NCBI GenBank assembly: GCA_964399525.1
Contig: CAYNRF010000001.1
Coordinates: 2,125-50,844 of the forward strand
Reading direction: 5' to 3'
DNA: 48,720 nt
Origin: an uncultured Phycisphaeraceae bacterium
GTDB lineage: Bacteria; Planctomycetota; Phycisphaerae; Phycisphaerales; UBA1924
Made by a program: the position numbers and the translations under genes. Of the stretch, positions 11,885 to 48,609 are shown piece after piece. Below the pieces are notes generated by a model. That model was not told the origin of the DNA and did not search any database. It worked only from the letters and a program-made list of their open reading frames with translations. How positions within the stretch are numbered: position 1 is the first letter of the stretch; every line of letters begins with the position of its first letter.

Positions 11885-13243
11885 TCACACCTTGATGACG
11901 ATGTTCCTGCGCCAGAGCCACCAGCAGAAGAACCACCACATCGTCAGCCAGGTCAGCACGAAAACCCAGCCACCCCAGGCCATGGCCCACCACTCGCCGG
12001 CGCCGCGGAGCGCGGCCCAGTGCTGAACCCAGTTGATGAACCCGCCCGCCATGGCGCCGGCGTGGCCGTTGGGGTGGATGATCTGCCACTTGGCGAAGAT
12101 GGTCTTGAAGGTGAACTCGGCGCCCATGTAGAGGGCCAGGGCGTTGAGGCCGTAGACGCGGAAGACGAAGCAGGTGGAGATCTTCCAGACGTCGGTGACG
12201 AGGTAGAACCCCGCGAGCAGCATGGCCCCGGTGCCCGCGGCCAGCAGGCAGTAACTGGGCGTGAAGATCCACTTGCTGAAGGGCTGCGTCAGCGGGCCGA
12301 GCGAGCCGCCGCCCTCGGGGCGATAACCGGCCTGCAGGAGGTACGACAACGCGGTGACGAGAACGCCGATGCCCAGCAGCATGCCCGCCCGACGAAGTTT
12401 GGGCCATTTCTCGCTGGTGATCAGTTCGGTGCACCAGCCGCCCATCACCGCGACCGCGGCCAGCGGGAGGAACTGCTGGGCCATGCCGAACCAGCCAACC
12501 ACGAAGGCCCAGAACCGGGGCTCGCCGTTGGCGCGGAGGGTGGCCTTGGTGTGCTCGAGGTGGAGCAGGCGCTTGATGTCGTCGAGGTGGGTGAAGGTGC
12601 CAGGGCCGGTGAACTCGCCGCCGAGCACGCGGGGGGCGAGATTGGCGGCCTGCATCACGCCGCGGGCATAGTCGGCGGTGATGATCAGCGGCAGGGCGAG
12701 TTTGGCCAGCAGGATGGCGACCACGGCGGTGACCTGGGCCCAGCGCGGCATGAGGTAGATGCAGACCGCGACGAAGTAGCCCGCGCCGATGAGTTGCAGG
12801 ATGTTCCAGCTGAACCAGTCCGTCCAGGTCAGGGCGCGGTCGTAGGCCGGGCTGGCGACGGTGAGCAGCACGCCGAGCAGGTAGATGATGAGTCCCCGTC
12901 GGGCCGCGGCGGCCACTTTGGCCCAGGCACTCATCGAACGACCACGCCCGGACTTCATGGAGAGCGGGATGGCGGCCCCGGCGATGAACAGGAACCACGG
13001 GAAGACCAGGTCGGTGAAGGTGGCGCCCTGCTCGGGGGCGTTCCAGTCGATGTGGAAGAACTGCGGGTGGAACACCTTCTGGTTCCAGGTCATGTTGACG
13101 AAGAGCATGGCGGCGATGTCGAAGCCGCGGAAGGCGTCGAGGCACAGCAGGCGTTCGCGCTTGGCAGGGGCTGCCGGTGCGGGAGGAGCGGGGGCCGAGG
13201 GGGGGGCGGAAGGGGCGGCGGGTTCGGAGGCGATGCGGCTCAT
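11885..13243 (-). CDS. Polytopic membrane protein, DUF5009/DUF1624 heparan-alpha-glucosaminide N-acetyltransferase (HGSNAT)-like
   Basis: 452 aa. Pro/Ala-rich N-terminus, then RLLCLDAFRGFDIAAMLFVN and TFTDLVFPWFLFIAGAA, followed by many TM segments. The start ATG overlaps the lysA stop (ATGA at 13240-13243). Confidence 0.8.
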   Translation of the reverse strand: MSRIASEPAAPSAPPSAPAPPAPAAPAKRERLLCLDAFRGFDIAAMLFVNMTWNQKVFHPQFFHIDWNAPEQGATFTDLVFPWFLFIAGAAIPLSMKSGRGRSMSAWAKVAAAARRGLIIYLLGVLLTVASPAYDRALTWTDWFSWNILQLIGAGYFVAVCIYLMPRWAQVTAVVAILLAKLALPLIITADYARGVMQAANLAPRVLGGEFTGPGTFTHLDDIKRLLHLEHTKATLRANGEPRFWAFVVGWFGMAQQFLPLAAVAVMGGWCTELITSEKWPKLRRAGMLLGIGVLVTALSYLLQAGYRPEGGGSLGPLTQPFSKWIFTPSYCLLAAGTGAMLLAGFYLVTDVWKISTCFVFRVYGLNALALYMGAEFTFKTIFAKWQIIHPNGHAGAMAGGFINWVQHWAALRGAGEWWAMAWGGWVFVLTWLTMWWFFCWWLWRRNIVIKV

Positions 13244-28182: not shown

Positions 28183-29015
28183 GTGTGCTCGATCCATTCC
28201 ACGGACGAACGGACCAGCGCCGCGGCGGTCCGGACATCCTCGACCCGCTGCTCGCCCGCCTCCCGCTCGATCACCAGGTCGCAGTCGCTCAGACGCTGGC
28301 GGACGATGGCAAAGAAACGCGCCCAGTCCACCGCGCCGGTCCCCGCCGGGACTTCCCGGCCCCAGCTCCCCGGGACCGGCGTGTACAGGGCGTCCTTGAT
28401 GTGGATCTGCTCGACGCGCGGGGCGAGCTTGGTCAGCGCCTCGACCGGGTCGCCCATGTTGTACAGGATCATGTTGGCCGGATCGAAGTTGATGCCCACG
28501 GTGGGCCGGTCGAGCGCGTCGAGCGCTTCGAGCAGCGTGCCGGCGTCCTCCTGGCCCGTCTCCAGCGCCACGCGGACGCCGCAGCCGTGGAACACGTCCG
28601 CCAGATCCCGCAGGCGGTGGATCAGCTTGTCCCACTCCGGATCCTGGCGATCGTGGGGGATGAAGCCCGCGTGGAAGGTGACGAGGTTGACGCCGATGCG
28701 TGCCGCCAGCTCGGCGTCGCGTCGCGCCGCGGCCAGATTCTCGGGCCAGGTGCGGTCCGGGCGGACGCCGCCGGTCTCCCGGATGGTGTCGAGCGTGGAG
28801 TAGTCCTCTCCCGCGGTGGCCATCATGCCGGAGACGATCTCGATGCCGGCCCCGTCGAGCAGCGACACGGTTTCGATCTCGTCCCATTCACCGGTGCGCA
28901 CCGGGTCGAGGGCCAGCTGCACGGCGGAGAGGCCGCACTGCCTGATCTTGGCCACGAGATCGCCCGGCGAGGTCGGGCGCAGCGACCACGAGCACACGCC
29001 CAGCGCCGCGCTCAA
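28179..29015 (-). CDS. Sugar phosphate isomerase/epimerase (xylose-isomerase-like TIM barrel)
   Basis: About 278 aa. VNLVTFHAGF, RVALETGQE, GINFDPANM and IHIKDA are the metal-ligand blocks of the AP_endonuc_2 fold. The proposed TTG start at 29015 overlaps the nagB TGA (TTGA). The start is not certain. Confidence 0.8.
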   Translation of the reverse strand: MSAALGVCSWSLRPTSPGDLVAKIRQCGLSAVQLALDPVRTGEWDEIETVSLLDGAGIEIVSGMMATAGEDYSTLDTIRETGGVRPDRTWPENLAAARRDAELAARIGVNLVTFHAGFIPHDRQDPEWDKLIHRLRDLADVFHGCGVRVALETGQEDAGTLLEALDALDRPTVGINFDPANMILYNMGDPVEALTKLAPRVEQIHIKDALYTPVPGSWGREVPAGTGAVDWARFFAIVRQRLSDCDLVIEREAGEQRVEDVRTAAALVRSSVEWIEHT

Positions 29016-31054
29016 CGCCCGGCTCCCGTCTGGGCGAGGGGCTTGATCTCCGCGGCGGACGCGGCCTCGTCCAGCGATCCGTCGGCGGCGCTGGGCTTCC
29101 AGGTCACGAACCCTTCGATGGCCTGGTACTCGGGCAGGCCCAGGGCGTCGTAGAGCTCGGCGGTGGCCCGGTTGCGATCCTCGGCCCGTTCCCAGAACTC
29201 TCGCGGGTCGTTGGGGCCCGGGAACAGAGCGCGGTCCTTCTGGCTCTGGTGCTTGAAGATCGCCATGCGCTTGCGGTCCACCTCGTCGGGCGACAGGGGC
29301 ACCGCCATCTCGATGTCCTCGGCGCCCCATTCCTGCCACGCGCCGCGGTACAGCCACACGGTGCAGTCCTTCATCCACGCCTCGTCACGCAGCCGGTGCA
29401 GCGCCGTGGTGATCGCCGCCAGGCACACCCGGTGCGTTCCGTGCGGGTCGGACAGATCGCCCGCCGCGTAGACCTGATGGGGCTTGACGCTGCGCAGCAG
29501 GTCCGTCACGATCCGGATATCGTCCTCGCCCAGCGGCTTCTTCTTGACCTTGCCGGTCTCGTAGAAGGGCATGTCCAGGAAGTGGATGTTCTCCGCCTTG
29601 ACGCCCGAGTACTTCGCGCCCGCGCGTGCCTCGGCCCGCCGGATCAGGCCCTTGATGGTCTGGATCTCGGCCGAGTCGACCTCGCCGGGCTCCTTGTCGC
29701 GGATGAAGTCCTGCACGCGACCGGTCAGCGCCGTGATCTGTTCGACCGCAATTCCCAAAGCGTTGGAGAGCTCCTGGGTAAAGTCGGCGAACTTGGCGGC
29801 TTCGTCGTCGAAGACGGCGATGTTGCCGCTGGTCTGGTAGGCGACGTGCACCTCGTGCCCCTGGTCGCACAGGCGGATGAAGGTGCCGCCCATCGAGATG
29901 ACGTCGTCGTCGGGGTGCGGGCTGAACACGATCACCCGCTTGGGGAACACGTCGTCGGTCCGCGTGTCGTCGATGCCCTTGCCGGGGACGAACATCGGAC
30001 GCCCCGGCTTGCCGCCGGGCCAGCCGGTGATGGTTTTCTGGAGGTTCTTGAACACCTCGATGTTCACCTGATACGCCCCGCCGCGCGCGGCGACCAGCTC
30101 CTGCAGTCCGTGCTCGTTGTAGTCCTCGTTGGTCAGCTTGAGGATGGGCTTCTTGAGCGAGCGCGCCAGCCAGATCACCGCCCGCTTGACGAGCCGGGCG
30201 TCCTCCCACGAATGGCCGAACCGCTTGACCGGGCCGAGCAGCCAGGGGGTCTTGAAGCGGGTCAGTTCCGCCGCGGCCGCCTCGTCGAGCACGAAGCGGG
30301 CGTTGGGATGCTCCTGGAGGAACGAGGCGGCGACCGTGTTGGTGATCTCGCCCTCGACCGCGCGGCGGACGATCGGCGCCTTGTGCTCGCCGAAGGCCAT
30401 CAGCACCACCCGCTTGGCATCGAGGATGGAGCCCACACCCATGGTGATCGCCTGGTGCGGCACGTTCCACTCGCCGAAGAAGTCGCTGGCCGCGTCCATC
30501 CGCGTGACCTTGTCCAGCGTGATCAGGCGGGTGCGGCTGTCCTTGCTCGAGCCGGGCTCGTTGAAGCCGACGTGGCCCGTCCGGCCGATGCCCAGCAGCT
30601 GCAGGTCCAGACCGCCGGCATCAGCGATCGCCTTCTCGTAGCGCTCGCAGTACGCGTCGACATCGTCACGCGGGATCGTGCCGTCGGGCACGTGGGCGTT
30701 CTTCGGGTCAATGTCCACGTGGTCGAACAGGTGCTCGCGCATGAAGCGGCGGTAGCTCTGCAGCTCGTCCGGGCCCATCGGCCAGTACTCGTCGAGGTTG
30801 AAGCTGATCACGTCGCGGAACGACAGCCCTTCCTCGCGGTGCAGCCGGACCAGTTCGTCGTAGACGGCCTGGGGGGTCGACCCGGTCGCCAGACCCAGCA
30901 CGGTCTTCTCGCCGCGGGCGGACTTGGCGCGGATCAGCTCGGCGATCTCGCGGGCCACGGCCCGCGAGGCGGAGCTGGAAGAGGCATAAACGGTGACGGG
31001 GACGCGCTCGGGGGCGTGCCCGGTCGCGTGTGCGGCGTGGTCAGATCCGATCAC
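29012..31054 (-). CDS. nagB: Glucosamine-6-phosphate deaminase (NagB) fused to an LmbE/PIG-L-type N-deacetylase domain
   Basis: 680 aa. The N-terminal half has VLGLATGSTP, FNLDEY and LLGIGRTGHVGFNEPGS (NagB). The C-terminal half has VIVFSPHPDDDVISMGGT...HEVHVAYQTSG (PIG-L/LmbE zinc deacetylase motif). Confidence 0.9.
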   Translation of the reverse strand: MIGSDHAAHATGHAPERVPVTVYASSSSASRAVAREIAELIRAKSARGEKTVLGLATGSTPQAVYDELVRLHREEGLSFRDVISFNLDEYWPMGPDELQSYRRFMREHLFDHVDIDPKNAHVPDGTIPRDDVDAYCERYEKAIADAGGLDLQLLGIGRTGHVGFNEPGSSKDSRTRLITLDKVTRMDAASDFFGEWNVPHQAITMGVGSILDAKRVVLMAFGEHKAPIVRRAVEGEITNTVAASFLQEHPNARFVLDEAAAAELTRFKTPWLLGPVKRFGHSWEDARLVKRAVIWLARSLKKPILKLTNEDYNEHGLQELVAARGGAYQVNIEVFKNLQKTITGWPGGKPGRPMFVPGKGIDDTRTDDVFPKRVIVFSPHPDDDVISMGGTFIRLCDQGHEVHVAYQTSGNIAVFDDEAAKFADFTQELSNALGIAVEQITALTGRVQDFIRDKEPGEVDSAEIQTIKGLIRRAEARAGAKYSGVKAENIHFLDMPFYETGKVKKKPLGEDDIRIVTDLLRSVKPHQVYAAGDLSDPHGTHRVCLAAITTALHRLRDEAWMKDCTVWLYRGAWQEWGAEDIEMAVPLSPDEVDRKRMAIFKHQSQKDRALFPGPNDPREFWERAEDRNRATAELYDALGLPEYQAIEGFVTWKPSAADGSLDEAASAAEIKPLAQTGAGR

Positions 31055-38707: not shown

Positions 38708-38740
38708 GGCCGCCCCGGGCTCTGCCCGGGGCGGCCTTTT
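38708..38740 (+). terminator. Rho-independent terminator
   Basis: GGCCGCCCCGGG-CTCTG-CCCGGGGCGGCC (12-bp perfect stem) followed by TTTT. It abuts the stop of the convergent symporter gene. Confidence 0.65.
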
Positions 38741-40401
38741 CATGCCCGGGCACGCTCCGGGAAGATCCTCGCCGTCACGAGTCCCACCAGCCAGGCCGCA
38801 GCGCTGGCGATCGCCAGTTTCCACACGAACGCCAGATCCAGCACCGCCAGCAGCGGCGGGCGGGCCGCCACCGGATCGGCCAGGCGGGCGGCGCGGAAGT
38901 TCTCGCGCAGGGCGCTCAGATCAACGATGTTGGCCCAGACGATGTCCTGCATGGCCAGCACCACGACAAATCCGGTCACGAGCGTCGCCACGACGCCCGC
39001 GGTGCTGCCCCCCCGGGTCAGCAGCGCTGTCAGGAAGACGGGGATCAGGCCGGCGTAGGCGAACGTCATGACCGACAGGGCGAACGTGAGCAGCGTCCCG
39101 CCCTCGCGCAGTTCTCCTTCCTGCGACTGCCAGAACACACAGACCACGGCGAACCCGCCCAGGATCAGGCCCCATCCCACCACCGCGCACCGCCCGGCGC
39201 GCAGGTAGTGCCGCTCGTCGCGGTCGGGGCGCAGACGCCGGTAGAAGTCGTTGATGAAGGTTGACGCCATGGCGTTGATGCCGCTGTTCAGGCTCGAAAG
39301 CCCCGCCGCGAACAGCCCGGCCATCATCAGGCCGCTCACGCCGGCCGGCATGTGGTCGATGATGAAGCTCAGGAACACCCGGCGGGAATCCTCGGGCACG
39401 GCCGGGGCTTCGAGACCGTGGTCCGCCCACATCTGCGGCTGCTGGTAGAAGAGCCACAGCAGCAGACCCACGATCAGGAAGAGCGCCACCGAAGGCACCC
39501 CGAACAGGATGCCCCCGATCACCGATCGGGCGGCCGACTTCTCGTCCTTGCAGGTCAGCATCCGCTGGGTGAGGTCCTGGTCGGTCCCGTAGGACGCGAT
39601 GCCCATCAGGGCGAACCCGACGATCACCGCCGGCAGGGAGAACGGCATCGTCCACCAGGGGTCCGCGCCGGAGCCGGCCTGGATGACCGTCAGCTTGCTG
39701 GCCTGGCCGTCCCCCGGGCTGGCGAGCATCGCCACGGCCTCGCCCGCCGAGACGGGCAGCTGCCAGGCGATCAGCCCGATCGCCAGCACGCAGGCGCCCA
39801 GCAGCACCGCCATCTGGACCACGTCGGTCCAGATCACGCTCGAGATCCCGCCGGCGAGGGTGTAGACGATCCCCACGACCGTCAGCCCGGCGATCGCGAT
39901 GCACAGGTTGCCCGGCTCCAGCCCGGCGTCCCCGAAGAGGATGATCGATGCCGGGATGGCCCCGATGAACACGCGGACGCCGCTGGCCATGATCCGCCCG
40001 AGCATGTACGCCCCGCTCGTCGCCTGCATGGCGGTGCGCCCGTACCGCTGGTCGAGCAGCTCATAGATCGTCCGCACCCGCCTGCGATAGAACGCCGGGA
40101 TAAACAGGAAGGCGATGACGAACGCCGCGATGACCATGCCGATGTTCGTGCTCAGGTATGTCAGGTCCCCCGTGTATCCCTGCTGCGGAACGCCGATGAA
40201 GCTCGCCGCCGACATGCTCGTGGCCACGATCGACACCCCGACGGCCCAGGCGGGCATCCGGCGTCCGCCGAGGAAATAGTCGTCCGTCCCGGTCTGCTCG
40301 CGGCGCGCGTACCACACGCCCGTCACGGCCAGCACGGCGAAATAGCCGCCCAGAACCACCCAGTCCAGCGTCGCCAGGTCCGAAGAGAATCGCGTGAGCA
40401 T
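38740..40401 (-). CDS. Sodium:solute symporter family (SSF) transporter
   Basis: 553 aa from ATG 40401 (MLTRFSSDLATLDWVVLGGYFAVLAVTGVWYARRE...DDYFLGGRRMPAWAVGVSIVATSMSAASFIG). About 13-14 TM segments. Tracked ORF 38740-40587 overruns the start. Confidence 0.9.
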   Translation of the reverse strand: MLTRFSSDLATLDWVVLGGYFAVLAVTGVWYARREQTGTDDYFLGGRRMPAWAVGVSIVATSMSAASFIGVPQQGYTGDLTYLSTNIGMVIAAFVIAFLFIPAFYRRRVRTIYELLDQRYGRTAMQATSGAYMLGRIMASGVRVFIGAIPASIILFGDAGLEPGNLCIAIAGLTVVGIVYTLAGGISSVIWTDVVQMAVLLGACVLAIGLIAWQLPVSAGEAVAMLASPGDGQASKLTVIQAGSGADPWWTMPFSLPAVIVGFALMGIASYGTDQDLTQRMLTCKDEKSAARSVIGGILFGVPSVALFLIVGLLLWLFYQQPQMWADHGLEAPAVPEDSRRVFLSFIIDHMPAGVSGLMMAGLFAAGLSSLNSGINAMASTFINDFYRRLRPDRDERHYLRAGRCAVVGWGLILGGFAVVCVFWQSQEGELREGGTLLTFALSVMTFAYAGLIPVFLTALLTRGGSTAGVVATLVTGFVVVLAMQDIVWANIVDLSALRENFRAARLADPVAARPPLLAVLDLAFVWKLAIASAAAWLVGLVTARIFPERARA

Positions 40402-40447
40402 GCCGGGCACGATACCCTCCCCCGTCCAACCCTGCACGGAGACGCCG

Positions 40448-41455
40448 ATGCGACGGAATCGAATGACTGTCCTGCTGCTCGCCCTGGTCGCCGCCGTGGC
40501 CGGCTGCCGCGCGCCCGCGCCGCTGCCCGGCGACCGCCTGGAGCGGCGTGGGGACGAGATCGTGGTCGCCGGGCAGCTGTTCCACACCGGAGCCCCCGTC
40601 GTCCTCTGGACGGATCCGGGCGGTTACGACGCGTACCGCGTCGAGCGACGCTTCGCCCGGGCCGAGGAATCCTCGTGGAACGCCATCAAGGATGCGCTGG
40701 ACACCCCGAACCGATACGGCCAGCGACGGACCGACGACCCGGAGCTCAACGAGCGTGTCCGCGGCGGTGGTTGGACCCTGGACGAGCTGCGCGGCGTCGT
40801 GGATCAGTTCGTGCTGCACTATGACGTCTGCGGGACCAGCCGCACCTGCTTCCGCGTCCTGCACGACATGCGCGGCCTGTCCGTCCACTTCATGCTGGAC
40901 ATCGACGGCACGATCTACCAGACGCTGGACGTCAAGGAGCGTGCCTGGCACGCCACGATCGCCAACGACCGATCGGTCGGCATCGAGATCGCCCATATCG
41001 GGGCCTATCCGACGCTGGATGCCAGGCCGCTGACCGAGTGGTACGGAGCCGACGCCGAAGGCCGCACGCGGATCACCATCCCCGAGCGGCTCGGTGACGG
41101 CGGCGTCCGCACGCCGGGATTCATCGGTTTCCCGGCCCGGGCCGAGCCGGTTTCTGGAACGATCAACGGCTCCGAGCTGGTGATGTGGGACCTGACGCCC
41201 GAGCAGTACGACTCGCTGATCAAGCTCACCGCCGCCCTGCACCGCGCGCTGCCGGGGATCGAGCTGAACTACCCCGCCGACCCGGACGGGAGGGTGCTCG
41301 ACCGGGTGCTGGACGCCGACGAGTTCCGCTCGTTCCGCGGCGTGCTGGCGCACTGGCACGTGCAGCGCAACAAGATCGACCCCGGGCCGGCGCTGGATTG
41401 GAACAAGGTGATCGGCGGGGCCCGCGAACTCGTCGAGCGGGCGGAGCGCCGCTAG
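40448..41455 (+). CDS. N-acetylmuramoyl-L-alanine amidase (Amidase_2/PGRP fold) lipoprotein
   Basis: Start ATG 40448 (MRRNRMTVLLLALVAAVAGC lipobox). FVLHYDVCGTS, HFMLDIDGTIYQ, AWHATIANDRSVGIEIAH and HWHVQRNKIDPGPALDW are the zinc and substrate motifs of Amidase_2. Confidence 0.85.
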   Translation: MRRNRMTVLLLALVAAVAGCRAPAPLPGDRLERRGDEIVVAGQLFHTGAPVVLWTDPGGYDAYRVERRFARAEESSWNAIKDALDTPNRYGQRRTDDPELNERVRGGGWTLDELRGVVDQFVLHYDVCGTSRTCFRVLHDMRGLSVHFMLDIDGTIYQTLDVKERAWHATIANDRSVGIEIAHIGAYPTLDARPLTEWYGADAEGRTRITIPERLGDGGVRTPGFIGFPARAEPVSGTINGSELVMWDLTPEQYDSLIKLTAALHRALPGIELNYPADPDGRVLDRVLDADEFRSFRGVLAHWHVQRNKIDPGPALDWNKVIGGARELVERAERR

Positions 41456-42609
41456 ACCTTCAGGACCACCCCCGCGCGGTCCAGGCCCCAGGCGATCAGC
41501 CACCACAGGCCGACCGTGAAGAGGGCAAAGCCGAGCGAGGCGTTCGGCGGGCTGAGCACTGCGTCAAACCCGGCGGTGATCCACGCCTTCACGGTCGGCG
41601 CGTCGCCGGGCCCCGGGACCAGGATCAGGATGCGAGCGAGGATGCCGGACCCGACGAACACCGTGATCGCGTGGCGTCCGAGCAGCACGAGGGCGGCCCC
41701 GCCCGGGAGCCGATGCCGGTCGAAGGCGAACAGGCACAGTCCCAGCGCGGCGATCGCCCAGCCCCCGGAGAAGAGCACGTAGCTGCTCGTCCAGAGCGGC
41801 TTGTTGAGGGGAACGAACCCGGACGCCCACCAGCCGGCGCTCGCGAAGGCAACACCGGCGAGGACCAGCCGCCCGCACAGCCCGGGCGTCGGCGCACGGC
41901 CCCGGACTGCCAGGCCGCACCAATAGCCCATCATGGTGGACACCAGCGCCGGCAGCGTGCTCAGCAGGCCCTCCGGGTCGGTCGGAGAACCTCTGTAGAG
42001 CCGAGGCTCGCCGAGCACCGCCCGGTCCACCCAGCGGACCAGATTGTCGGACTCGGAGAAGGGGTCGGCCCGGTTGAACAGCCACAGAGCCAGCGGGTAG
42101 ACCGCCAGGAGGCAGGCGCACACGGCGACCTGCCCGCGCACGCCGACGAACGCGGCGAGCACGCACGCCATCAGGTAGACAAGCCCGATGCGCTGCAGCA
42201 CGCCCGGCAGGCGGACGGATCCGAGTTCGGACGCCGCGTCCGACCAGGACCAGGCCGCCGCGGCCTGCCACAGCGGCTGGAAACCGTTGAGCAGCAGCCC
42301 GAGGCCGATCAGCAACGCCGTGCGGCGCAGCACCCGACCCCAGAACGCCGCGCCCGGCCGCCCGCCTTCCAGATGACGCGGCAGCGAGAAGGCCATGGCC
42401 GCGCCGACGATGAACAGAAAGAACGGAAAAATCAGGTCCGTTGGCGTGCACCCGTGCCAGGCGGCGTGGCGCAGCGGCGGGTACACGGCCGCCCACGAGC
42501 CGGGGTTGTTGACGAGGATCATCGCCGCGATGGTGGCGCCGCGGAAGGCGTCCAGACTTGCAAGCCGTGTCCTGCCGGGCTCGGATTGTGGGCCGGATCC
42601 GTCGGGCAT
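41452..42609 (-). CDS. Polytopic membrane protein, DUF5009 heparan-alpha-glucosaminide N-acetyltransferase (HGSNAT)-like
   Basis: 385 aa. RLASLDAFRGATIAAMILVNNPGSW and AAWHGCTPTDLIFPFFLFIVGAAMAFS blocks, with about 10 TM segments. It lies 67 nt downstream of speA on the same strand. Confidence 0.85.
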   Translation of the reverse strand: MPDGSGPQSEPGRTRLASLDAFRGATIAAMILVNNPGSWAAVYPPLRHAAWHGCTPTDLIFPFFLFIVGAAMAFSLPRHLEGGRPGAAFWGRVLRRTALLIGLGLLLNGFQPLWQAAAAWSWSDAASELGSVRLPGVLQRIGLVYLMACVLAAFVGVRGQVAVCACLLAVYPLALWLFNRADPFSESDNLVRWVDRAVLGEPRLYRGSPTDPEGLLSTLPALVSTMMGYWCGLAVRGRAPTPGLCGRLVLAGVAFASAGWWASGFVPLNKPLWTSSYVLFSGGWAIAALGLCLFAFDRHRLPGGAALVLLGRHAITVFVGSGILARILILVPGPGDAPTVKAWITAGFDAVLSPPNASLGFALFTVGLWWLIAWGLDRAGVVLKV

Positions 42610-42676
42610 CGATCCTGAGCCTCCCTCTGCATCGGCGTTGTTCGCGCCGCTGTCCCGAGAAGATCGGGCGATCGCG

Positions 42677-44653
42677 TCAGCCCAGATCGACGTCCGGATC
42701 GAGGTAGGTGTACCCGTTCAGACCTCGGTCGTAGAAGTTGATCAGGATGCGGCTTTCCTGCACGGACATGCTGCCCGATCGGACGGCCTTCTCGCACTCT
42801 TTCTCGAGGTGGCGGCTCAGCCCGTCCGGCTCGTACTGCACGTAGCTGAGCACCTCGCGGATCGAGTCGCCCTTGACCACCTCGCCGATGACCCACTGCC
42901 CGTCCTCGACGTCGATGTGCACGGCGTGCGCATCGCCGAACAGGTTGTGCAGATCGCCGAGCGTCTCCTGGTAGGCGCCCACCAGGAACACGCCCAGGTA
43001 ATAGGGCTCGTTGCGGAGATCGTGCACGGCGAGCGTCTTCTCGGGCGCGCCCTGCAGCCCGATGAAATCGTCGATCTTGCCGTCCGAATCGCAGGTGATG
43101 TCCGCCAGCACCGCACGTTCGACGGGCTCCTCGCCGAGGCGGTGGATCGGCATGATCGGGAAGAGCTGGTCGATCGCCCAGGTGTCCGGCAGCGACTGGA
43201 AGAGCGAGAAGTTGCAGAAGTAGTTCTCGCACATCAGGTCGTCGATGCCCGCCAGCGCCTCGGGGATCTCCTCGCGCTTGTGCACGGCCTCCTGCACCAG
43301 CGAACAGGTGGTCCAGTACAGCCTCTCGGAGAGCGCCCGCTCGTGCAGGCTCAGGTACCCCAGGCTGAACAGGGTCAGGGCCTCCTCGCGGGCCCGCTCG
43401 GCGTCGTGGAAGCACTCGACCAGACGCCCGTTCGCCTTGGCGGCCGTGCTGATCGCCGCCCGCAGATCGCGGATCGGCTGGGGCTCGTCGTCGTGCCCGG
43501 GCGCGTCGATCAGGTTGCGGTCGACGAGTTCGCTGGGGCCGGTCGAGCCGAGCACGTCGAACACCAGCACCGAGCTGTGCGCCACCATCGCCCGCCCGCA
43601 CTCGGTCACGATCGTGGGGTGCTCGACCTCGGCCGCGTCGCAGACCGAGCCGATGCGGTACACCACGTCGGAGGCGTACTCGTCGAGGGAGTAGTTCATC
43701 GAGGAGGGACGATTGGTCTGGCTGCCCTGGTAGTCCACGGCCAGCCCGCCGCCGATGTCGATCATGGTCAGGCCGGCGCCCTCGCGCTTGAGCTGCACGA
43801 AGACGTGGGCCAGCTCGGTGATGCAGCGCTTGACCTGGGCGATGTCCTGGAGCTGGCTGCCCGAGTGGCAGTGGAGCAGCTTGAGACCTTCGAGCAGGTC
43901 GTGCCGGCGCAGCGTCGACACCGCCTCGAGCAGCTCGGCGATGGTCAGGCCGAACTTGCTCTTCACGCCCACGGAGTCGGCCCAGCGTCCCGATCCGCCC
44001 GAGGCGAGCTTGACCCGCACGCCGATGGTGGGGCGGACCTTGTGCTTCTCGGCGAAGTGGATGATCAGGCGCAGCTCCTTGACGTTCTCCACCACCGGGA
44101 TGATCCGGCGACCGAGCTTGGTCGCCAGGATGACCGCCTCGATGTAGCGGGCGTCCTTGAAGCCGTTGCAGATGATCGGCTGGTTGGGCGTCTCGACCGT
44201 CATGCCCAGCACCGCGAGCAGTTCGGGCTTGGAGCCGACCTCCAGGCCGAAGCCCAGCCGATGCCCGTAGTCGCGCACCTCGTCGACGACCTGCCGCTGC
44301 TGGTTCACCTTGATCGGGTACACGGCCAGGTAGTCGCCCTTGTAGTTGTTCTCCTTGATGGAGGTCTCGAACGCCTGGCGGAGCGACCGCAGCCGGTGGT
44401 CCAGGATCCCGGAGAACCGCAGGAGCACCGGCGTGTCGATGCCGCGGGCGGACAGACCGCGGATGACCTCGTGCAGGTCGATCTTCGGACCGTTCGCCCC
44501 GGTCGGGGTGGCCTCGACCTGCCCCTGGTCGTTGACCCGGAAATACCCCCCGCCCCAGTTGGCGATCCGGTACAGCTCGGCCGAGTCCTGATGGGTCCAG
44601 GCGGTTCCCGGGTTGACGGCGGACTGGCGGCTGGAAGGCGTTGCGGTGCTCAT
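42677..44653 (-). CDS. speA: Biosynthetic arginine decarboxylase
   Basis: 658 aa. YRIANWGGGYFRVN, the YPIKVNQQ PLP-Lys block, HCHSGSQ, IDIGGGLAVDY and CDSDGKID are collinear with SpeA. Confidence 0.93.
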   Translation of the reverse strand: MSTATPSSRQSAVNPGTAWTHQDSAELYRIANWGGGYFRVNDQGQVEATPTGANGPKIDLHEVIRGLSARGIDTPVLLRFSGILDHRLRSLRQAFETSIKENNYKGDYLAVYPIKVNQQRQVVDEVRDYGHRLGFGLEVGSKPELLAVLGMTVETPNQPIICNGFKDARYIEAVILATKLGRRIIPVVENVKELRLIIHFAEKHKVRPTIGVRVKLASGGSGRWADSVGVKSKFGLTIAELLEAVSTLRRHDLLEGLKLLHCHSGSQLQDIAQVKRCITELAHVFVQLKREGAGLTMIDIGGGLAVDYQGSQTNRPSSMNYSLDEYASDVVYRIGSVCDAAEVEHPTIVTECGRAMVAHSSVLVFDVLGSTGPSELVDRNLIDAPGHDDEPQPIRDLRAAISTAAKANGRLVECFHDAERAREEALTLFSLGYLSLHERALSERLYWTTCSLVQEAVHKREEIPEALAGIDDLMCENYFCNFSLFQSLPDTWAIDQLFPIMPIHRLGEEPVERAVLADITCDSDGKIDDFIGLQGAPEKTLAVHDLRNEPYYLGVFLVGAYQETLGDLHNLFGDAHAVHIDVEDGQWVIGEVVKGDSIREVLSYVQYEPDGLSRHLEKECEKAVRSGSMSVQESRILINFYDRGLNGYTYLDPDVDLG

Positions 44654-44778
44654 CCGGACAGTTTAGAAGGCTCACGCCCGACGGCGAGGTCCGGCCTACC
44701 GTCTGGGCCCCGGTTTTTTCGCACCTGGTAGCCAGCAACGCCCCGACGCACCCCGTCGGCGCTCCGGAGATCCCGCCG

Positions 44779-45747
44779 ATGACGATCCGAGCCTTCATGG
44801 AGGAGCATTACCGGCATTTCAACGCGGCCGCCGCGCTGGACGCCGCCAAGGGGTACGAGGCTCATCTGGCCAAGGGCGGGAAGATGATGGTCACCCTGGC
44901 CGGCGCGATGAGCACCGCCGAACTGGGCCGCTCGCTCGCCGAGATGATCCGCCGGGGCAAGGTCCACGCCATCACCTGCACGGGGGCGAATCTGGAGGAG
45001 GATGTCTTCAACCTGGTCGCCCATGATCACTACGTCCGCATTCCCGACTGGCGCAACCTCAACGACGCCGACGAACAGGCGCTCCTCGACCGCCACCTCA
45101 ACCGGGTGACCGACACCTGCATCCCCGAAGGGGAGGCGATCCGCCGCATCGAGCACGTCCTGCTCAAGCGGTGGCAGGAGGCCGACCGGTCCGGGAACCC
45201 GAAGTTCCCGCACGAGTTCTTCATGGACGCCCTGCTCTCGGGCGAGCTGGAGAAGTCGTACCAGGCCGACCCCAGGAACTCGTGGCTGCTGGCGGCCGCC
45301 CAGGCGAAGATCCCCGTGTACGTCCCCGGCTGGGAGGACTCGACGCTGGGCAACATCGCCGCGGCGCGGGTCATCGACGGCACCCTTTCGAACACCCGGT
45401 GCATCAAATCGGGTCTCGATTACATGGTGCATCTTGCCGACTTTTACACCCGCACCGTGTCCTCGGGCACGAGCATCGGCTTCTTCCAGGTCGGCGGCGG
45501 CATCGCGGGCGATTTCCCGATCTGCGTGGTCCCGATGATGCGTCAGGATCTGGAGCGGGACATCCCGCTGTGGGGCTATTTCTGCCAGATTTCCGACTCG
45601 ACCACAAGCTACGGGTCCTACTCGGGCGCCATCCCCGCCGAGAAGATCACCTGGGAAAAGATCGCCCCGGATACCCCCCGGTTCATGGTCGAATCCGATG
45701 CCACCATCGTCGCCCCGCTCATCTTCGGGTACCTGCTGGGCTGGTGA
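44779..45747 (+). CDS. Deoxyhypusine synthase family protein (bacterial DHS-like, possible homospermidine synthase)
   Basis: 322 aa from ATG 44779, with GGAGA upstream. TLAGAMSTAELG, ITCTGANLEEDVF, GWEDSTLGN, and GGGIAGDFP blocks of the DHS Rossmann fold are present. It is divergent from speA. Confidence 0.88.
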   Translation: MTIRAFMEEHYRHFNAAAALDAAKGYEAHLAKGGKMMVTLAGAMSTAELGRSLAEMIRRGKVHAITCTGANLEEDVFNLVAHDHYVRIPDWRNLNDADEQALLDRHLNRVTDTCIPEGEAIRRIEHVLLKRWQEADRSGNPKFPHEFFMDALLSGELEKSYQADPRNSWLLAAAQAKIPVYVPGWEDSTLGNIAAARVIDGTLSNTRCIKSGLDYMVHLADFYTRTVSSGTSIGFFQVGGGIAGDFPICVVPMMRQDLERDIPLWGYFCQISDSTTSYGSYSGAIPAEKITWEKIAPDTPRFMVESDATIVAPLIFGYLLGW

Positions 45748-45801: not shown

Positions 45802-45890
45802 GGAGAGGTGGCTGAGTGGTTGAAGGCGCACGGCTGGAATCCGTGTTTACGGGGTAACTCGTAACGGGGGTTCGAATCCCCCCCTCTCCG
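45802..45890 (+). tRNA. tRNA-Ser (anticodon GGA), class II with long variable arm; no encoded CCA
   Basis: Acceptor GGAGAGG/CCTCTCC plus discriminator G. Anticodon stem CACGG/CCGTG with loop CTGGAAT. Variable-arm stem TTACG/CGTAA. T-arm GGGGG-TTCGAAT-CCCCC. Confidence 0.93.
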
Positions 45891-45897
45891 CTTGAAG

Positions 45898-46175: not shown

Positions 46176-47039
46176 ATGTCACACGTTACGCGATTCATGA
46201 TTCCGGCCGCCGGCCTGCTGCTGGGGGTCCAGGCGACCGCCATGGCCGGCGGCGGCTCCAACCTGATCACCAACCCGGGCTTCGAGGAGCCCAACCCGGG
46301 CATGCCGACGCTGCCGCTGGGCTGGAACGGCATCAATGTCGATTCGAGCGACTACGTCGATCTGAACGATCCGGGCGCTTTCGTTCGGACCGGGGACAAG
46401 TCGATCCGCCTTCGTCCGTCCGCGGGTGACGCGGACCGCTTCAAGGGCTGGACCACCAACCTCTTCCGACCGGACGGCTCGGACCTGTTCGACCCGGACT
46501 ACGTCTATCTGGGCGGTGACGTGACCGTGTCGGGGTACTACCTGGTGCCGGAAGGCGAAGTCCTCCAGGACACCATCGTGGGGGTCAAGCTCGAGTTCCG
46601 GCGCGAGCCCCCGAACTTCTCGATCTGGGCGGCGTTCGAGTTCGCGTTCCCCTCGAACACGACCGCGGGCGAATGGGTGCCCTTCTCGTTCGTGGTCACC
46701 GACGACATGATCGCCGCGGTGGGGGACTTCCCGCCCGATCCGACCAGCGTCTCGATCCTGCCGTTCCGCTTCTTCGGAGGCCAGTTCGGGCCGGGCACCT
46801 CGCCCACCGGCACGGTGTACATCGACGACCTGAACATGGTGCAGGGCGACATCCCCGGCGGCTGCAACGCCGCCGACGTGGCCGAGCCGTTCGGCACCCT
46901 GAACTTCTTCGACGTGTCCACCTTCATCGGTCTGTTCAACGCCAACGACCCCGCGGCGGACCTCGCGGCCCCGTTCGGGACCTTCAACTTCTTCGACGTG
47001 TCGGCCTTCATCGGTCTGTACAACGCCGGATGCCCGTGA
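46176..47039 (+). CDS. Small secreted jelly-roll (CBM4_9/galactose-binding-like) protein with GC-type dockerin-like tail
   Basis: 287 aa with a signal peptide. NLITNPGFEEP...GW is the typical opening of CBM4_9-like sandwiches. The tail is CNAADVAEPFGTLNFFDVSTFIGLFNANDPAADLAAPFGTFNFFDVSAFIGLYNAGCP (46863-47036). Confidence 0.85.
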   Translation: MSHVTRFMIPAAGLLLGVQATAMAGGGSNLITNPGFEEPNPGMPTLPLGWNGINVDSSDYVDLNDPGAFVRTGDKSIRLRPSAGDADRFKGWTTNLFRPDGSDLFDPDYVYLGGDVTVSGYYLVPEGEVLQDTIVGVKLEFRREPPNFSIWAAFEFAFPSNTTAGEWVPFSFVVTDDMIAAVGDFPPDPTSVSILPFRFFGGQFGPGTSPTGTVYIDDLNMVQGDIPGGCNAADVAEPFGTLNFFDVSTFIGLFNANDPAADLAAPFGTFNFFDVSAFIGLYNAGCP

Positions 47040-47166: not shown

Positions 47167-48609
47167 ATGGCTCAAGGAACCGAGCACCACGCCACGGCCG
47201 CGCGCGACCGCATCCCGTGGATCCAGCTCATCGCGTACGGCCTGGGCGGTTTCGTGCCCATCGCCCTGTTCAACTCGGTCGGACAGCTGTCCGGGCTGAT
47301 CCTCAACGTCGGCCTGGGGATCGGCGCCGTCATGGTGGGGGTGGCACAGATGGTCCCGCGCTTCTGGGACGCCGTGACCGACCCGGTCATGGGCCACATC
47401 ACCGACAACACGCGGTCACGCTGGGGGCGGCGACGCCCGTACATCTTCTTCGGGGGTCTGCTGGTCTCGGCGTCGTTCGTCGCGATGTGGTCCGTGCCGC
47501 GTGAGTGGGACGCCTCGGCCCAGTTCTGGTACTTCCTCGGAATGTCGCTCGTCTTCTACACCGCGGTGACGATCTTCGAGATCCCCCACGGCGCCCTCGG
47601 CATGGAGATGACCGACGACTACCACGAACGCACCCGCCTCTTCAGCGCCAAGAGTTTCATCGGCAACCTCGGGGCGATCATCACCCCCTGGTTCTACGCG
47701 ATGTCGCACTGGGACATCTTCAAAGGACCCGGCGGCGACGAGGTCGACGGCATGCGCCGGGTGGCGTACGTCGCCGGCGCGATGGTCCTGCTGCCGGCGT
47801 TCGCGTGCGCGTTCTTCTGCAAGGAGCGCCACCAGACCCGGGTGATGCAGCAGAAGCGCGAGTCGCTCCCGACCAGCATGCGCCGCGTCGGCCGGAACCG
47901 GACCTTTCTGATCCTGGTGGGGGTGGTGTTCGCCACCGTCATGGGGTTCAACGTGGTCAACGGGTTCGCCAACTACATCGCGGTGTTCTATCTCTTTGCG
48001 GGCAACCGCGACGCCGCGTCCTCATTGCTCGGCGTCAACGGCACCGCCTGGGGCATCACCTCCGTCGTGGCGGTGTTCCCGCTCGTGCTGCTGAGCCGGC
48101 GCGTCGGCAAGCGGAGAACGATGACCGCGGCGATCGGGCTGATGGCGGGTGCGCAGGCCCTCAAGATCGTCTGCTACAACCCGGAACTGCCCTACCTGAC
48201 CCTGATCCCCACCGTCATGCTGGCGGCCGGCATGCTCATGTTCTTCACGCTCGCCAGCGCCATGGTGGCCGACGTCTGCGACGACGACGAACTGCGGACC
48301 GGCACACGCAGCGAGGGCGCGTACTACTCCGTGTTCTGGTGGTTCATGAAGATGGGCATGGCCGTGGCGTACCTGATCGCCGGCGTGCTCATCGAGGTCA
48401 CCGGGTTCGACCAGACGTCCGACGTCCAGGCCGACCGCACGCTGCTGCTGTTGCGGGCGTTCGAGATCGGCCTGCCGATCGCGCTGTGCGCAGCTTCGTT
48501 GATCCTCGTGCGGATCTACCCGCTGACCGAAGCCCGGGCGTACGAGATCAAGTCTCAGCTCGAGGCCCGACGTGGCGAGAGCGTTTCAAGGGACGTCGGA
48601 TCGGCCTAG
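47167..48609 (+). CDS. MFS transporter, glycoside-pentoside-hexuronide (GPH):cation symporter family (MelB-like)
   Basis: 480 aa. The DAVTDPVMGHITDNTRSRWGRRRPYIFFG signature loop of GPH/MFS_2 is present, with 12 TM segments. Confidence 0.9.
   Translation: MAQGTEHHATAARDRIPWIQLIAYGLGGFVPIALFNSVGQLSGLILNVGLGIGAVMVGVAQMVPRFWDAVTDPVMGHITDNTRSRWGRRRPYIFFGGLLVSASFVAMWSVPREWDASAQFWYFLGMSLVFYTAVTIFEIPHGALGMEMTDDYHERTRLFSAKSFIGNLGAIITPWFYAMSHWDIFKGPGGDEVDGMRRVAYVAGAMVLLPAFACAFFCKERHQTRVMQQKRESLPTSMRRVGRNRTFLILVGVVFATVMGFNVVNGFANYIAVFYLFAGNRDAASSLLGVNGTAWGITSVVAVFPLVLLSRRVGKRRTMTAAIGLMAGAQALKIVCYNPELPYLTLIPTVMLAAGMLMFFTLASAMVADVCDDDELRTGTRSEGAYYSVFWWFMKMGMAVAYLIAGVLIEVTGFDQTSDVQADRTLLLLRAFEIGLPIALCAASLILVRIYPLTEARAYEIKSQLEARRGESVSRDVGSA

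What the first reader, a model, noticed from the sequence alone, without database searches (positions are those of the whole stretch)
41452..45747. Second decarboxylase/HGSNAT-like pair (speA) next to a divergent deoxyhypusine-synthase-like gene
Seen in sequence:
- speA (44653<-42677) is followed after 67 nt by the HGSNAT-like gene (42609<-41452). A GGAGG lies 10 nt before its ATG, and I see no strong hairpin in the gap.
- A DHS-family gene (44779-45747) is transcribed divergently from speA across a 125-bp gap.
- That gap contains a T6 run (44714-44719) and a 9-bp imperfect hairpin (GCCCCGACG...CGTCGGCGC, 44740-44762) just before the DHS SD.

Established: bacterial DHS-like proteins can act as homospermidine synthases using putrescine. 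SpeA supplies agmatine.

Inference: the locus is a polyamine module (arginine to agmatine to homospermidine-type product). The attached transmembrane acyltransferase-like protein mirrors the lysA locus at 11885-14628. This raises the possibility of acetylated or envelope-attached polyamines. No agmatinase or agmatine deiminase is present in the window.
Basis: partly seen in the sequence, partly recalled or inferred. Interest (0 to 1): 0.6.

Follow-up and report, generated by a model that had tools for sequence, protein, structure and literature searches.

The report
Homospermidine genes beside unrelated membrane acetyltransferase
An uncultured marine planctomycete carries an ordinary two-gene core for making the polyamine homospermidine from arginine, built around an unusually divergent version of the key enzyme, and the membrane acetyltransferase gene next to it most likely belongs to cell-wall sugar recycling, not to polyamine chemistry.

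Summary
All coordinates in the finding are correct. The gene at 44653<-42677 is a biosynthetic arginine decarboxylase (speA). The gene at 44779-45747 is a deoxyhypusine synthase (DHS) family gene transcribed divergently from speA. An HGSNAT-like gene (42609<-41452) follows speA after 67 nt.

The polyamine reading holds, but in updated form. Bacterial DHS homologues (SpeY) couple two agmatines, not putrescine (PMC13625781). This copy belongs to a divergent clade I call "type A". It is 25% identical to canonical SpeY and falls below every NCBIfam cut-off. Across phyla it is 66-72% identical.

In 201 Phycisphaerales genomes, type A and canonical SpeY replace each other; only one genome has both. 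Type A occurs only where speA does. Elsewhere it sits in aguA-DHS-speA-aguB or DHS/speB-speA clusters.

The finishing enzymes lie outside the window. An N-carbamoylputrescine-amidase-like gene runs off contig C164, and the agmatine deiminase falls in an assembly gap (inferred).

The acetylated-polyamine idea is not supported. The membrane gene is missing from most genomes of the genus. Outside the genus it lies with its paralogue, Amidase_2, GH38, MurQ, NagB and SSF symporter genes, never with a decarboxylase. One agmatinase-like adjacency in another family remains unexplained.

An earlier follow-up on the lysA locus of this window reached the same view.

The parts
44779..45747 (+). DHS-family gene of the 'type A' clade. 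It is probably a SpeY-like agmatine-coupling enzyme that makes the homospermidine precursor.
   Evidence: PF01916 scores 140 bits. All NCBIfam DHS/SpeY equivalogs are far below cut-off. The motif SYGSYSGAIPAEKITWEK keeps the lysine of the (S/T)W(G/E)K motif, and that lysine is invariant in 80 of 80 homologues across phyla. The gene is divergent from speA in all 9 other genomes of the genus. It is mutually exclusive with canonical SpeY.
42677..44653 (-). speA, biosynthetic PLP-dependent arginine decarboxylase. It supplies agmatine.
   Evidence: NF003763 scores 816 bits (cut-off 369) and TIGR01273 scores 710 bits (cut-off 624). The domains Orn_Arg_deC_N, Arg_decarb_HB and Arg_decarbox_C are all present.
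44654..44778 (.). 125-bp divergent speA/DHS control region. It has conserved motifs AGTTTAGA (44660-44667) and GCCTACCGTC (44694-44703). The hairpin at 44740-44762 is not conserved.
   Evidence: Alignment of 11 orthologous intergenic regions. Folding z-scores are about 0. No Rfam family matched here apart from a 15.5-bit (E 0.14) chance-level match to a eukaryotic IRES model (IRES_Bip, gathering score 40) that overlaps its last bases.
42610..42676 (-). 67-nt spacer between speA and the membrane gene, with a GGAGG ribosome-binding site. In relatives a speB-like agmatinase-family gene lies directly after speA, ahead of the membrane gene where that gene is present.
   Evidence: Sequence read. No terminator-like site lies in the spacer. 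The slot comparison across the genus is, and loci L201/L202 are.
41452..42609 (-). HGSNAT/DUF5009-family polytopic membrane protein ('HGS2'). It is probably a NagX-like acetyl-CoA-dependent transmembrane N-acetyltransferase of amino-sugar or cell-wall salvage.
   Evidence: It matches human HGSNAT structures at E 4.7e-23, with RHAAWHG aligned to KHASWNG. NagX NF046061 scores 141 bits, below the cut-off of 480. It has about 9 hydrophobic segments.
40394..41455 (+). Amidase_2 (AmpD/PGRP-type muramoyl-L-alanine amidase) gene, convergent on HGS2. It is a recurrent neighbour of HGS2 homologues.
   Evidence: PF01510 scores 64 bits. It is adjacent to HGS2/HGS1 homologues in L201, L202 and L206.
38740..40587 (-). 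Sodium:solute symporter (SSF). It is a recurrent neighbour of HGS2 homologues in several planctomycete families.
   Evidence: PF00474 scores 133 bits. SSF lies next to HGS2 homologues in G014, G263, G372 and G437.
11885..13243 (-). Paralogous HGSNAT-like gene ('HGS1') downstream of lysA (13240-14628). GH38 (14680-17685) lies divergent to lysA.
   Evidence: Pfam results are. HGS1 and HGS2 are the only two paralogues in the assembly. They are direct neighbours of each other in relatives L204 and L206. HGS1 faces GH38 with no lysA between them in G134.

Best explanation
The locus joins two unrelated functions. First, speA and the divergently transcribed DHS-family gene form the core of an agmatine-dependent homospermidine pathway. 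SpeA turns arginine into agmatine. The DHS-like enzyme uses NAD and its conserved lysine to couple two agmatines into N1,N9-bis(guanidino)homospermidine. In this genome an agmatine-deiminase-like iminohydrolase and an N-carbamoylputrescine-amidase-like enzyme, encoded elsewhere, finish the product. The enzyme is not a canonical SpeY. It belongs to a very conserved sister clade ('type A') that replaces canonical SpeY in much of the order Phycisphaerales and occurs in many other phyla. Second, the HGSNAT-like gene behind speA is probably a NagX-like transmembrane N-acetyltransferase of amino-sugar or muropeptide salvage. It belongs with the adjacent Amidase_2 and SSF symporter genes and the large glycan-utilisation island that fills the window. 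Genome rearrangement in this genus placed it behind speA, and it is probably co-transcribed without sharing a pathway. Shown here: gene identities, synteny and phyletic patterns. Inferred: enzyme activities, the presence of the deiminase gene, and co-transcription.
For: Polyamine module:
- speA is a clear equivalog.
- The DHS-like gene is the only DS-family gene in the assembly.
- No spermidine synthase, AdoMetDC or saccharopine-dehydrogenase-type HSS/CASDH was found. No second AR-fold decarboxylase (ODC) exists beyond lysA and speA.
- The DHS<->speA arrangement is kept in 9 of 9 other genomes of the genus and in G020.
- Among 41 relatives, 34 have both genes, 2 have speA only, 5 have neither and none has DS only.
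- Each genome has either type A (about 105-154 bits against PF01916) or type B. Type B passes the SpeY equivalog NF002699 (528-543 bits against cut-off 500).
- In 201 genomes of the order, 156 carry a DS gene, 46 of them type B, and only G128 has both types.
- Type A lies in aguA-DHS-speA-aguB (Woeseiaceae, L152), in DHS|speB-speA (Acidobacteriota L158, L192; Phycisphaerales L122, L123) and near aguA in 8 Verrucomicrobia-like loci.
- The catalytic-lysine motif is invariant in 80 of 80 homologues.
- All SpeY homologues tested biochemically use agmatine (PMC13625781).
- sym-Homospermidine is the sole or major polyamine of several planctomycetes (PMC4334474).

Finishing enzymes:
- Five genomes of the genus have a speB-like gene directly behind speA and no canonical deiminase. 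Four have aguB-aguA next to aspS and no speB-like gene.
- The own assembly has aguB (95% identical to G007) cut by the end of contig C164 and aspS cut by the start of C6. This brackets the expected aguA position.

Membrane gene:
- Among the 40 relatives searched, true orthologues occur only in G002 and G014, plus a decayed remnant in G009.
- In L206 the order is C39 peptidase-HGS2|HGS1, Amidase_2-GH38. In L204 HGS1 and HGS2 are divergent. In G134 HGS1 faces GH38 without lysA.
- In G372 the operon is MurQ (TIGR00274, 374 bits)-HGS2-SGL-NagB with a divergent SSF.
- None of 21 phylum-wide homologue loci has a decarboxylase within 1.5 kb.
- The window itself is a glycan and amino-sugar island: GH31, amylase, GH38, NagB-PIG-L fusion, GHL10, NAGPA, ROK kinase, SSF and Amidase_2.
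Against: - No type A enzyme is known to me to have been assayed. It fails both SpeY equivalog models (110 and 83 bits against cut-offs 450 and 500). It is only 25% identical to canonical SpeY. Its substrate (agmatine or putrescine) is therefore inferred.
- The deiminase gene of this genome has not been seen, only bracketed by two contig ends. The assembly is 82% complete.
- Where it survives within the genus clade, HGS2 is tightly packed behind speA/speB: a 20-nt gap in L201 and a 4-nt overlap with speB in L202.
- The only two AR-fold decarboxylases of the assembly are each followed by one of its only two HGSNAT-like genes.
- In another planctomycete family, an agmatinase-like gene adjoins the HGS2 homologue in two different arrangements.
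- These last three points are not explained by pure accident.
Confidence: 0.62

Rival explanations
1. The type A DHS-like enzyme is a putrescine-dependent homospermidine synthase. SpeA makes agmatine. AguA/AguB (or SpeB in sister genomes) make putrescine. The DHS-like enzyme then condenses two putrescines.
For: The genus carries enzymes that NCBIfam models score as agmatinase (TIGR01230, 201 bits against cut-off 174), agmatine deiminase and N-carbamoylputrescine amidase. These could make putrescine. Type A is a separate clade from the SpeY types that were assayed. Its substrate-site residues differ from type B in the aligned motifs.
Against: [quoted passage not shown] Type A and canonical SpeY substitute for one another genome by genome next to the same speA gene. 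That pattern is simplest if they catalyse the same step.
Confidence: 0.17
2. The HGSNAT-like protein is a working part of the polyamine operon. It would N-acetylate agmatine, the bis-guanidino intermediate or homospermidine across the membrane, for export or envelope attachment.
For: It shares a strand with speA, with a 67-nt gap, a ribosome-binding site and no terminator. speA-speB-HGS2 is tightly packed in L201 and L202. Both decarboxylases of the genome are followed by an HGSNAT-like gene. An agmatinase-like gene sits next to HGS2 homologues in a second planctomycete family. The family chemistry is N-acetylation of a primary amine across a membrane.
Against: The gene is lost, or decayed to a remnant, in 7 of the 9 other genomes of the genus, while speA and the DHS gene stay. 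No decarboxylase or DHS gene lies near any of about 29 homologue loci outside the genus. Outside the genus the recurring partners are MurQ, NagB, SSF, Amidase_2, GH38 and the paralogue. The closest curated model is the glucosamine N-acetyltransferase NagX.
Confidence: 0.09
3. The DHS-like protein is not a polyamine enzyme. Instead it modifies a protein such as EF-P or another lysine-bearing target, as DHS does with eIF5A.
For: The 66-72% identity across at least eight phyla is unusually high for a small-molecule biosynthetic enzyme. In most of the 80 loci the gene stands alone with unrelated neighbours.
Against: It never occurs without speA in the relatives searched. It is embedded in agmatine-gene operons in several phyla. 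It is mutually exclusive with a bona fide SpeY. No spermidine pathway exists to supply a DHS-type aminobutyl donor.
Confidence: 0.05

Closest known systems
SpeY pathway: ADC + SpeY (N1,N9-bis(guanidino)homospermidine, or 'diagmatine', synthase) + diagmatine ureohydrolase or iminohydrolase/amidase. Described in Thermus thermophilus, Anabaena and others (PMC13625781, PMC10981699).
   Same: A DS-fold enzyme with the catalytic lysine lies next to an arginine decarboxylase. A speB-like or aguA/aguB finishing module is present. No spermidine or HSS route exists. The two finishing options occur as mutually exclusive alternatives.
   Different: The enzyme is 25% identical to the canonical SpeY of sister genera. 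It fails both NCBIfam SpeY equivalogs, NF002699 and NF001980. I do not know of an assayed member of this clade. Within one genus the finishing module switches while speA and the DHS gene stay in place.
[quoted passage not shown]
   Same: A planctomycete has the ADC and the DHS homologue adjacent, with the deiminase/amidase pair at a separate locus.
   Different: Here the ADC is the PLP-dependent AR-fold SpeA, not a pyruvoyl SpeD-derived enzyme, and the two genes are divergent. I could not determine which DHS clade G. maris carries.
NagX (NCBIfam NF046061, Shewanella SO_3504 type) and human lysosomal HGSNAT (PDB 8vkj, 8jkv).
   Same: A polytopic membrane protein carries the N-terminal RLxSxDxFRG and (K/R)HAxWxG motifs and the PxNKxLW motif aligned to HGSNAT. 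It sits among amino-sugar genes.
   Different: It scores 141 bits against the NagX cut-off of 480. It lacks the luminal N-terminal domain of the human enzyme. Here it is positioned behind speA. Its substrate is unknown.
Eukaryotic/archaeal deoxyhypusine synthase and plant DHS-derived homospermidine synthase.
   Same: Same fold and same lysine-bearing C-terminal motif.
   Different: These enzymes need spermidine as the aminobutyl donor, and no spermidine pathway was found in this genome. All DHS equivalog models score far below cut-off.

Membership tests
SpeY (bacterial DHS homologue, agmatine-coupling synthase) | Deoxyhypusine synthase fold (Pfam PF01916) over the whole length | tested here: met
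   140 bits, covering residues 14-317 of 322.
SpeY (bacterial DHS homologue, agmatine-coupling synthase) | Lysine of the C-terminal (S/T)W(G/E)K motif is retained | tested here: met
   ITWEK aligns to SWNK of archaeal DHS 8put and to SWGK of canonical SpeY. The lysine is invariant in 80 of 80 type A homologues.
SpeY (bacterial DHS homologue, agmatine-coupling synthase) | Score above the curated cut-off of a SpeY equivalog model (NF002699 or NF001980) | tested here: not met
   83 bits against cut-off 500, and 110 bits against cut-off 450. The type B genes of sister genera pass with 528-543 bits.
SpeY (bacterial DHS homologue, agmatine-coupling synthase) | Genomic linkage and co-occurrence with an arginine decarboxylase | tested here: met
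   The gene is divergent from speA in the window and in 9 of 9 other genomes of the genus. No DS gene occurs without speA in 41 genomes. It lies in operons with speA in other phyla.
SpeY (bacterial DHS homologue, agmatine-coupling synthase) | A partner ureohydrolase, or an iminohydrolase plus amidase, is present in the same genome | tested here: inconclusive
   The feature is met in all nine other genomes of the genus: 5 with a speB-like gene and 4 with aguA/aguB. In the own assembly aguB is present but cut by a contig end, and aguA is only inferred to lie in the gap.
SpeY (bacterial DHS homologue, agmatine-coupling synthase) | Forms N1,N9-bis(guanidino)homospermidine from two agmatines | not testable with these tools
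   This needs heterologous expression and LC-MS, as in PMC13625781.
Biosynthetic arginine decarboxylase SpeA | Equivalog model above cut-off, and three-domain architecture with the helical-bundle insert | tested here: met
   NF003763 scores 816 against 369 and TIGR01273 scores 710 against 624. PF02784, PF17810 and PF17944 are all present.
HGSNAT / NagX transmembrane N-acetyltransferases | Significant similarity to the HGSNAT catalytic membrane domain, including the histidine-bearing motif | tested here: met
   phmmer against human HGSNAT structures gives E 4.7e-23. RHAAWHG aligns to KHASWNG and PLNKPLWTSSY to PVNKNLWSLSY. That this histidine is the acetyl acceptor is from memory. The Pfam scores are just under the gathering thresholds (21.3 against 22, and 21.8 against 25).
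HGSNAT / NagX transmembrane N-acetyltransferases | NagX equivalog score above cut-off | tested here: not met
   141 bits against cut-off 480.
HGSNAT / NagX transmembrane N-acetyltransferases | Embedded in amino-sugar or muropeptide utilisation genes | tested here: met
   In the window it lies with Amidase_2, SSF, ROK kinase, NAGPA/GHL10 and a NagB-PIG-L fusion. Homologues lie with MurQ, NagB, SSF, Amidase_2 and GH38.
HGSNAT / NagX transmembrane N-acetyltransferases | Acetyl-CoA-dependent N-acetylation of glucosamine-type substrates | not testable with these tools
   This needs a biochemical assay.
Deoxyhypusine synthase proper (eIF5A/aIF5A-modifying) | Spermidine available as aminobutyl donor, and a DHS equivalog score above cut-off | tested here: not met
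   No SpeE, SpeD or CASDH-type gene is in the assembly (the assembly is 82% complete). DHS equivalogs score 58-100 bits against cut-offs of 304-434.
Bacterial homospermidine synthase HSS (saccharopine-dehydrogenase fold) | Sacchrp_dh-type protein present | tested here: not met
   PF16653 was not found in the assembly.

The most novel reading that the evidence does not exclude
The type A DHS clade has no curated model and, as far as I know, has not been assayed. It is 66-72% identical across Planctomycetota, Verrucomicrobiota, Bdellovibrionota, Bacteroidota, Acidobacteriota, Gemmatimonadota and Gammaproteobacteria. It might be a distinct enzyme, not a plain SpeY isoform. For example, it could accept a different amine or form a different product. 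The HGSNAT-like proteins that recur next to agmatinase-like genes in two planctomycete lineages might acetylate a polyamine or guanidino-amine at the membrane. That would be a new kind of polyamine modification or export step.
Probability: 0.1. Interest if true: 0.75.

Novelty: new variant of a known kind. Interest (0 to 1): 0.33.

Why it matters
If the type A enzyme is an agmatine-coupling synthase, the recently defined agmatine/SpeY route to homospermidine extends to a large, very conserved and so far unmodelled enzyme clade. That clade is present in many environmental phyla. The result would also improve annotation of thousands of genes now labelled 'deoxyhypusine synthase family protein'. 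The genus-level switch between ureohydrolase and iminohydrolase/amidase finishing modules around a fixed speA/DHS core is a clean natural example of module replacement in polyamine biosynthesis. For the membrane gene, the result is mainly cautionary. A striking 'two decarboxylases, two acetyltransferases' pattern in one genome dissolves once relatives are compared.

Tried and rejected
- I looked for a structured RNA or attenuator in the two intergenic regions. Folding was no better than shuffles. The only Rfam matches were the tRNA, two sub-threshold matches overlapping the tRNA and the DNA just after it, and a chance-level one (IRES_Bip, 15.5 bits, E 0.14) at the DHS start. No sigma-70-like promoter was found.
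- I considered the arginase-fold gene on contig C75 as the missing agmatinase and rejected it. It is hutG-like, sits next to hutI, and is present in all genomes of the genus regardless of finishing module.
- I considered the PAD_porph gene on C13 as the deiminase and rejected it. It is a 591-aa protein with a GC-type dockerin tail, scores weakly against the agmatine deiminase models, and is present in all genomes.
- I tried de novo clustering of neighbours of the 80 type A loci. Spurious antisense ORFs in GC-rich DNA contaminated the clusters. I replaced this with targeted tblastn and Pfam checks.
- I looked for remnants of speB or HGS2 in the 647-nt slot of G008 and found none.
- I could not obtain the sequences of the assayed SpeY proteins, because no supplement is held for PMC13625781. 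Whether any assayed enzyme is type A is therefore unknown.

Full report
**Observation.** speA is at 44653<-42677 (658 aa). The HGSNAT-like gene is at 42609<-41452 (385 aa). The DHS-family gene is at 44779-45747 (322 aa). The 67-nt spacer with GGAGG 10 nt before the ATG is real. So are the 125-bp divergent gap, the T6 run and the imperfect 9-bp hairpin. Neither intergenic region folds better than shuffled sequence (z -0.07 to +0.25). Only chance-level, sub-threshold Rfam matches touch them. The hairpin lies in an indel-rich stretch that is not conserved among 11 orthologous regions. Two short motifs are conserved there: AGTTTAGA at 44660-44667 and GCCTACCGTC at 44694-44703.

**Gene identities.** speA passes both curated equivalogs: NF003763 at 816 bits and TIGR01273 at 710 bits. 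The DHS-like protein matches Pfam DS over its whole length (140 bits). It falls far below every NCBIfam DHS or SpeY model; the best is 110 bits against a cut-off of 450. It keeps the lysine of the C-terminal motif: ITWEK aligns with SWNK of an archaeal DHS structure and with SWGK of canonical SpeY. The membrane protein gives only sub-threshold Pfam hits. It matches the human HGSNAT cryo-EM sequences at E 4.7e-23, with the histidine-bearing motif aligned. Its best curated model is the glucosamine N-acetyltransferase NagX, at 141 bits against a cut-off of 480.

**Organism.** The window comes from a Phycisphaerales (Planctomycetota) metagenome-assembled genome. The assembly is 3.4 Mb in 333 contigs and 82% complete.

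**The polyamine module.** Every bacterial DHS homologue (SpeY) tested couples two agmatines into N1,N9-bis(guanidino)homospermidine. A dedicated ureohydrolase, or an iminohydrolase plus amidase, then converts this to homospermidine. Putrescine is not the substrate (PMC13625781).
- In this genome the DHS-like gene is the only DS-family gene.
- speA and lysA are the only AR-fold decarboxylases.
- No spermidine synthase, AdoMetDC or saccharopine-dehydrogenase-type enzyme was found.
- The divergent DHS/speA pair is kept in all nine other genomes of the genus.
- Among 41 relatives, 34 have both genes, two have speA only, five have neither and none has a DS gene alone.

**Two DS clades that replace each other.** Relatives carry one of two DS clades.
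- 'Type A' is the window's kind. It scores about 105-154 bits against the Pfam model.
- 'Type B' scores 228-328 bits against the Pfam model and passes the SpeY equivalog NF002699 (528-543 bits).
- The two types are 25% identical.
- In a sample of 201 genomes of the order, 156 carry a DS gene and 46 of those are type B. Only one genome (G128) has both types.
- Type B also sits next to speA in some genera (G014, G017, G022).
- This one-or-the-other pattern beside the same decarboxylase is the main argument that type A does the SpeY job.

**Type A beyond the order.** Type A is remarkably conserved, at 66-72% identity. It occurs in Verrucomicrobiota, Bdellovibrionota, Cyclobacteriaceae, Acidobacteriota, Gemmatimonadota, Woeseiaceae and others. 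Its lysine motif and CTGANLEED are invariant in 80 of 80 homologues. In several phyla it is embedded in agmatine genes:
- aguA-DHS-speA-aguB in a Woeseiaceae genome (L152);
- DHS|speB-speA in Acidobacteriota and other Phycisphaerales;
- aguA within 1.4-3 kb in eight Verrucomicrobia-like loci.

In many other loci its neighbours are unrelated. Homospermidine is the sole or major polyamine of several cultured planctomycetes (PMC4334474). An ADC-speY pair with aguA/aguB elsewhere is already described for Gimesia maris (PMC10407285).

**Finishing enzymes.** The genus splits cleanly into two groups.
- G001, G002, G003, G006 and G009 have a 288-294-aa agmatinase-family gene directly behind speA (TIGR01230, 201 bits). 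They have no canonical deiminase.
- G004, G005, G007 and G008 have no such gene. They carry an aguB-aguA pair between asnB and aspS.

The window's genome belongs to the second group. Its aguB is 95% identical to that of G007 and runs off the end of contig C164. aspS runs off the start of contig C6. The expected aguA therefore falls in an assembly gap; this is an inference. Two other candidates in the assembly are excluded. The arginase-fold gene on C75 is hutG-like and lies next to hutI. The PAD_porph gene on C13 encodes a dockerin-tailed protein. Both are present in every genome of the genus.

**The membrane gene ('HGS2').** The assembly has two HGSNAT-like paralogues, and each lies behind one of the two decarboxylases. 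That pattern made the finding attractive. Comparison with relatives undoes most of it.
- *Within the genus.* The slot between speA and the convergent Amidase_2 gene varies. It is empty in G004, G005 and G007. It holds only speB in G001, G003 and G006. It holds speB plus a decayed HGS2 remnant in G009, speB plus HGS2 in G002, and HGS2 alone in the window. Two metagenomic relatives show DS<->speA-speB-HGS2|Amidase_2-SSF, with a 20-nt gap or a 4-nt overlap before HGS2. Co-transcription in this clade is therefore likely.
- *Outside the genus.* No homologue lies near a decarboxylase.
  - L206 has C39 peptidase-HGS2|HGS1, Amidase_2-GH38.
  - L204 has HGS1 and HGS2 divergent.
  - G134 has HGS1 facing GH38 with no lysA between them.
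  - G014 has HGS2 facing an SSF symporter.
  - None of 21 loci from a 401-genome phylum sample has speA or lysA within 1.5 kb.
  - In G372 the operon is MurQ (TIGR00274, 374 bits)-HGS2-gluconolactonase-like-NagB with a divergent SSF symporter.
- *In the window.* HGS1, GH38, Amidase_2 and HGS2 are still within 30 kb of each other. The DNA between them is a glycan and amino-sugar island: sugar ABC systems, a NagB-PIG-L fusion, GHL10, NAGPA, a ROK kinase and SSF.

The simplest reading is an ancestral cell-wall and amino-sugar salvage cluster that rearrangements broke up, with speA-DHS and lysA as housekeeping neighbours. An earlier follow-up on the lysA locus of this window (e1-4362729) reached the same conclusion. 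My tests were made independently before I read it.

**What remains unexplained.** The two-for-two pairing in this genome is improbable by chance. In a different planctomycete family (G317, G267, G556), an agmatinase-like gene adjoins the HGS2 homologue in two different arrangements. It scores 173-190 bits against PF00491 and sits just under the TIGR01230 cut-off. No speA or DHS gene lies within 8 kb. I therefore keep about 0.1 probability for a real link between these acetyltransferases and guanidino-amine or polyamine metabolism.

**Limits.**
- No type A enzyme activity is known to me.
- The sequences of the assayed SpeY proteins were not available, so I could not place type A relative to them.
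- The genome is incomplete.

**Verdict.** The polyamine part is a known kind of system with a divergent, unmodelled enzyme variant and an instructive within-genus switch of finishing modules. The acetylated-polyamine part is unlikely.

Noticed in passing
45802-45891 (+): A tRNA-Ser(GGA) gene lies 55 nt downstream of the DHS-like gene (57 bits against Rfam tRNA; confirmed by ARAGORN). After it come a GC-type dockerin protein (46176-47039) and a GPH/MFS_2 symporter (47167-48609).
   Followed up: partly
44660-44667 and 44694-44703: Two short motifs, AGTTTAGA and GCCTACCGTC, are conserved in the divergent speA/DHS intergenic region of all 11 relatives aligned. The rest of the region is variable. 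They could be promoter or operator elements for the pair.
   Followed up: partly
Genus relatives G001-G009; own contigs C164 and C6: Within one genus the enzymes that finish homospermidine synthesis alternate exactly. Five genomes have a speB-like gene behind speA. Four genomes, plus the own genome by inference, have aguB-aguA next to aspS. The speA/DHS core stays fixed throughout.
   Followed up: yes
L232 6615-7700 (-) and 7749-8888 (+); L233 about 7165-8259 (+) and 8290-9318 (+): In another planctomycete family an agmatinase-like ureohydrolase gene adjoins the HGS2 homologue. The pair is divergent in one genus and co-directional in another, and no speA or DHS gene lies within 8 kb. This is a second independent ureohydrolase/HGSNAT adjacency.
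   Followed up: partly
L235 5282-10834: This locus holds an operon MurQ etherase - HGSNAT-like - SMP-30/gluconolactonase-like - NagB-like, with a divergent SSF symporter. It looks like a compact MurNAc/GlcN salvage unit in which the HGSNAT-like protein is a core member.
   Followed up: partly
G128 (contigs C7 and C9): This is the only genome of the 201 sampled in the order that carries both a canonical SpeY-type gene and a type A DHS gene. It could be a transitional state or a case of two functions.
   Followed up: no
L141 4281-5201 and about 20 other Cyclobacteriaceae loci: A histone-deacetylase-family gene (PF00850, 205 bits) lies two genes upstream of the type A DHS gene in Algoriphagus and relatives. 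It could be an acetylpolyamine amidohydrolase, or simply family-level synteny.
   Followed up: no
G000 contig C13:4263-5225 (L111 1192-2967): A 591-aa protein combines a peptidylarginine/agmatine-deiminase-like PAD_porph domain with a C-terminal GC-type dockerin. This suggests a surface-anchored guanidino-group-modifying enzyme. It is conserved in every genome of the genus checked.
   Followed up: no
29012-31054 (-): One ORF fuses a glucosamine-6-phosphate isomerase/NagB-like domain to a PIG-L (GlcNAc deacetylase-like) domain. It lies inside the amino-sugar island between the two HGSNAT-like genes.
   Followed up: no
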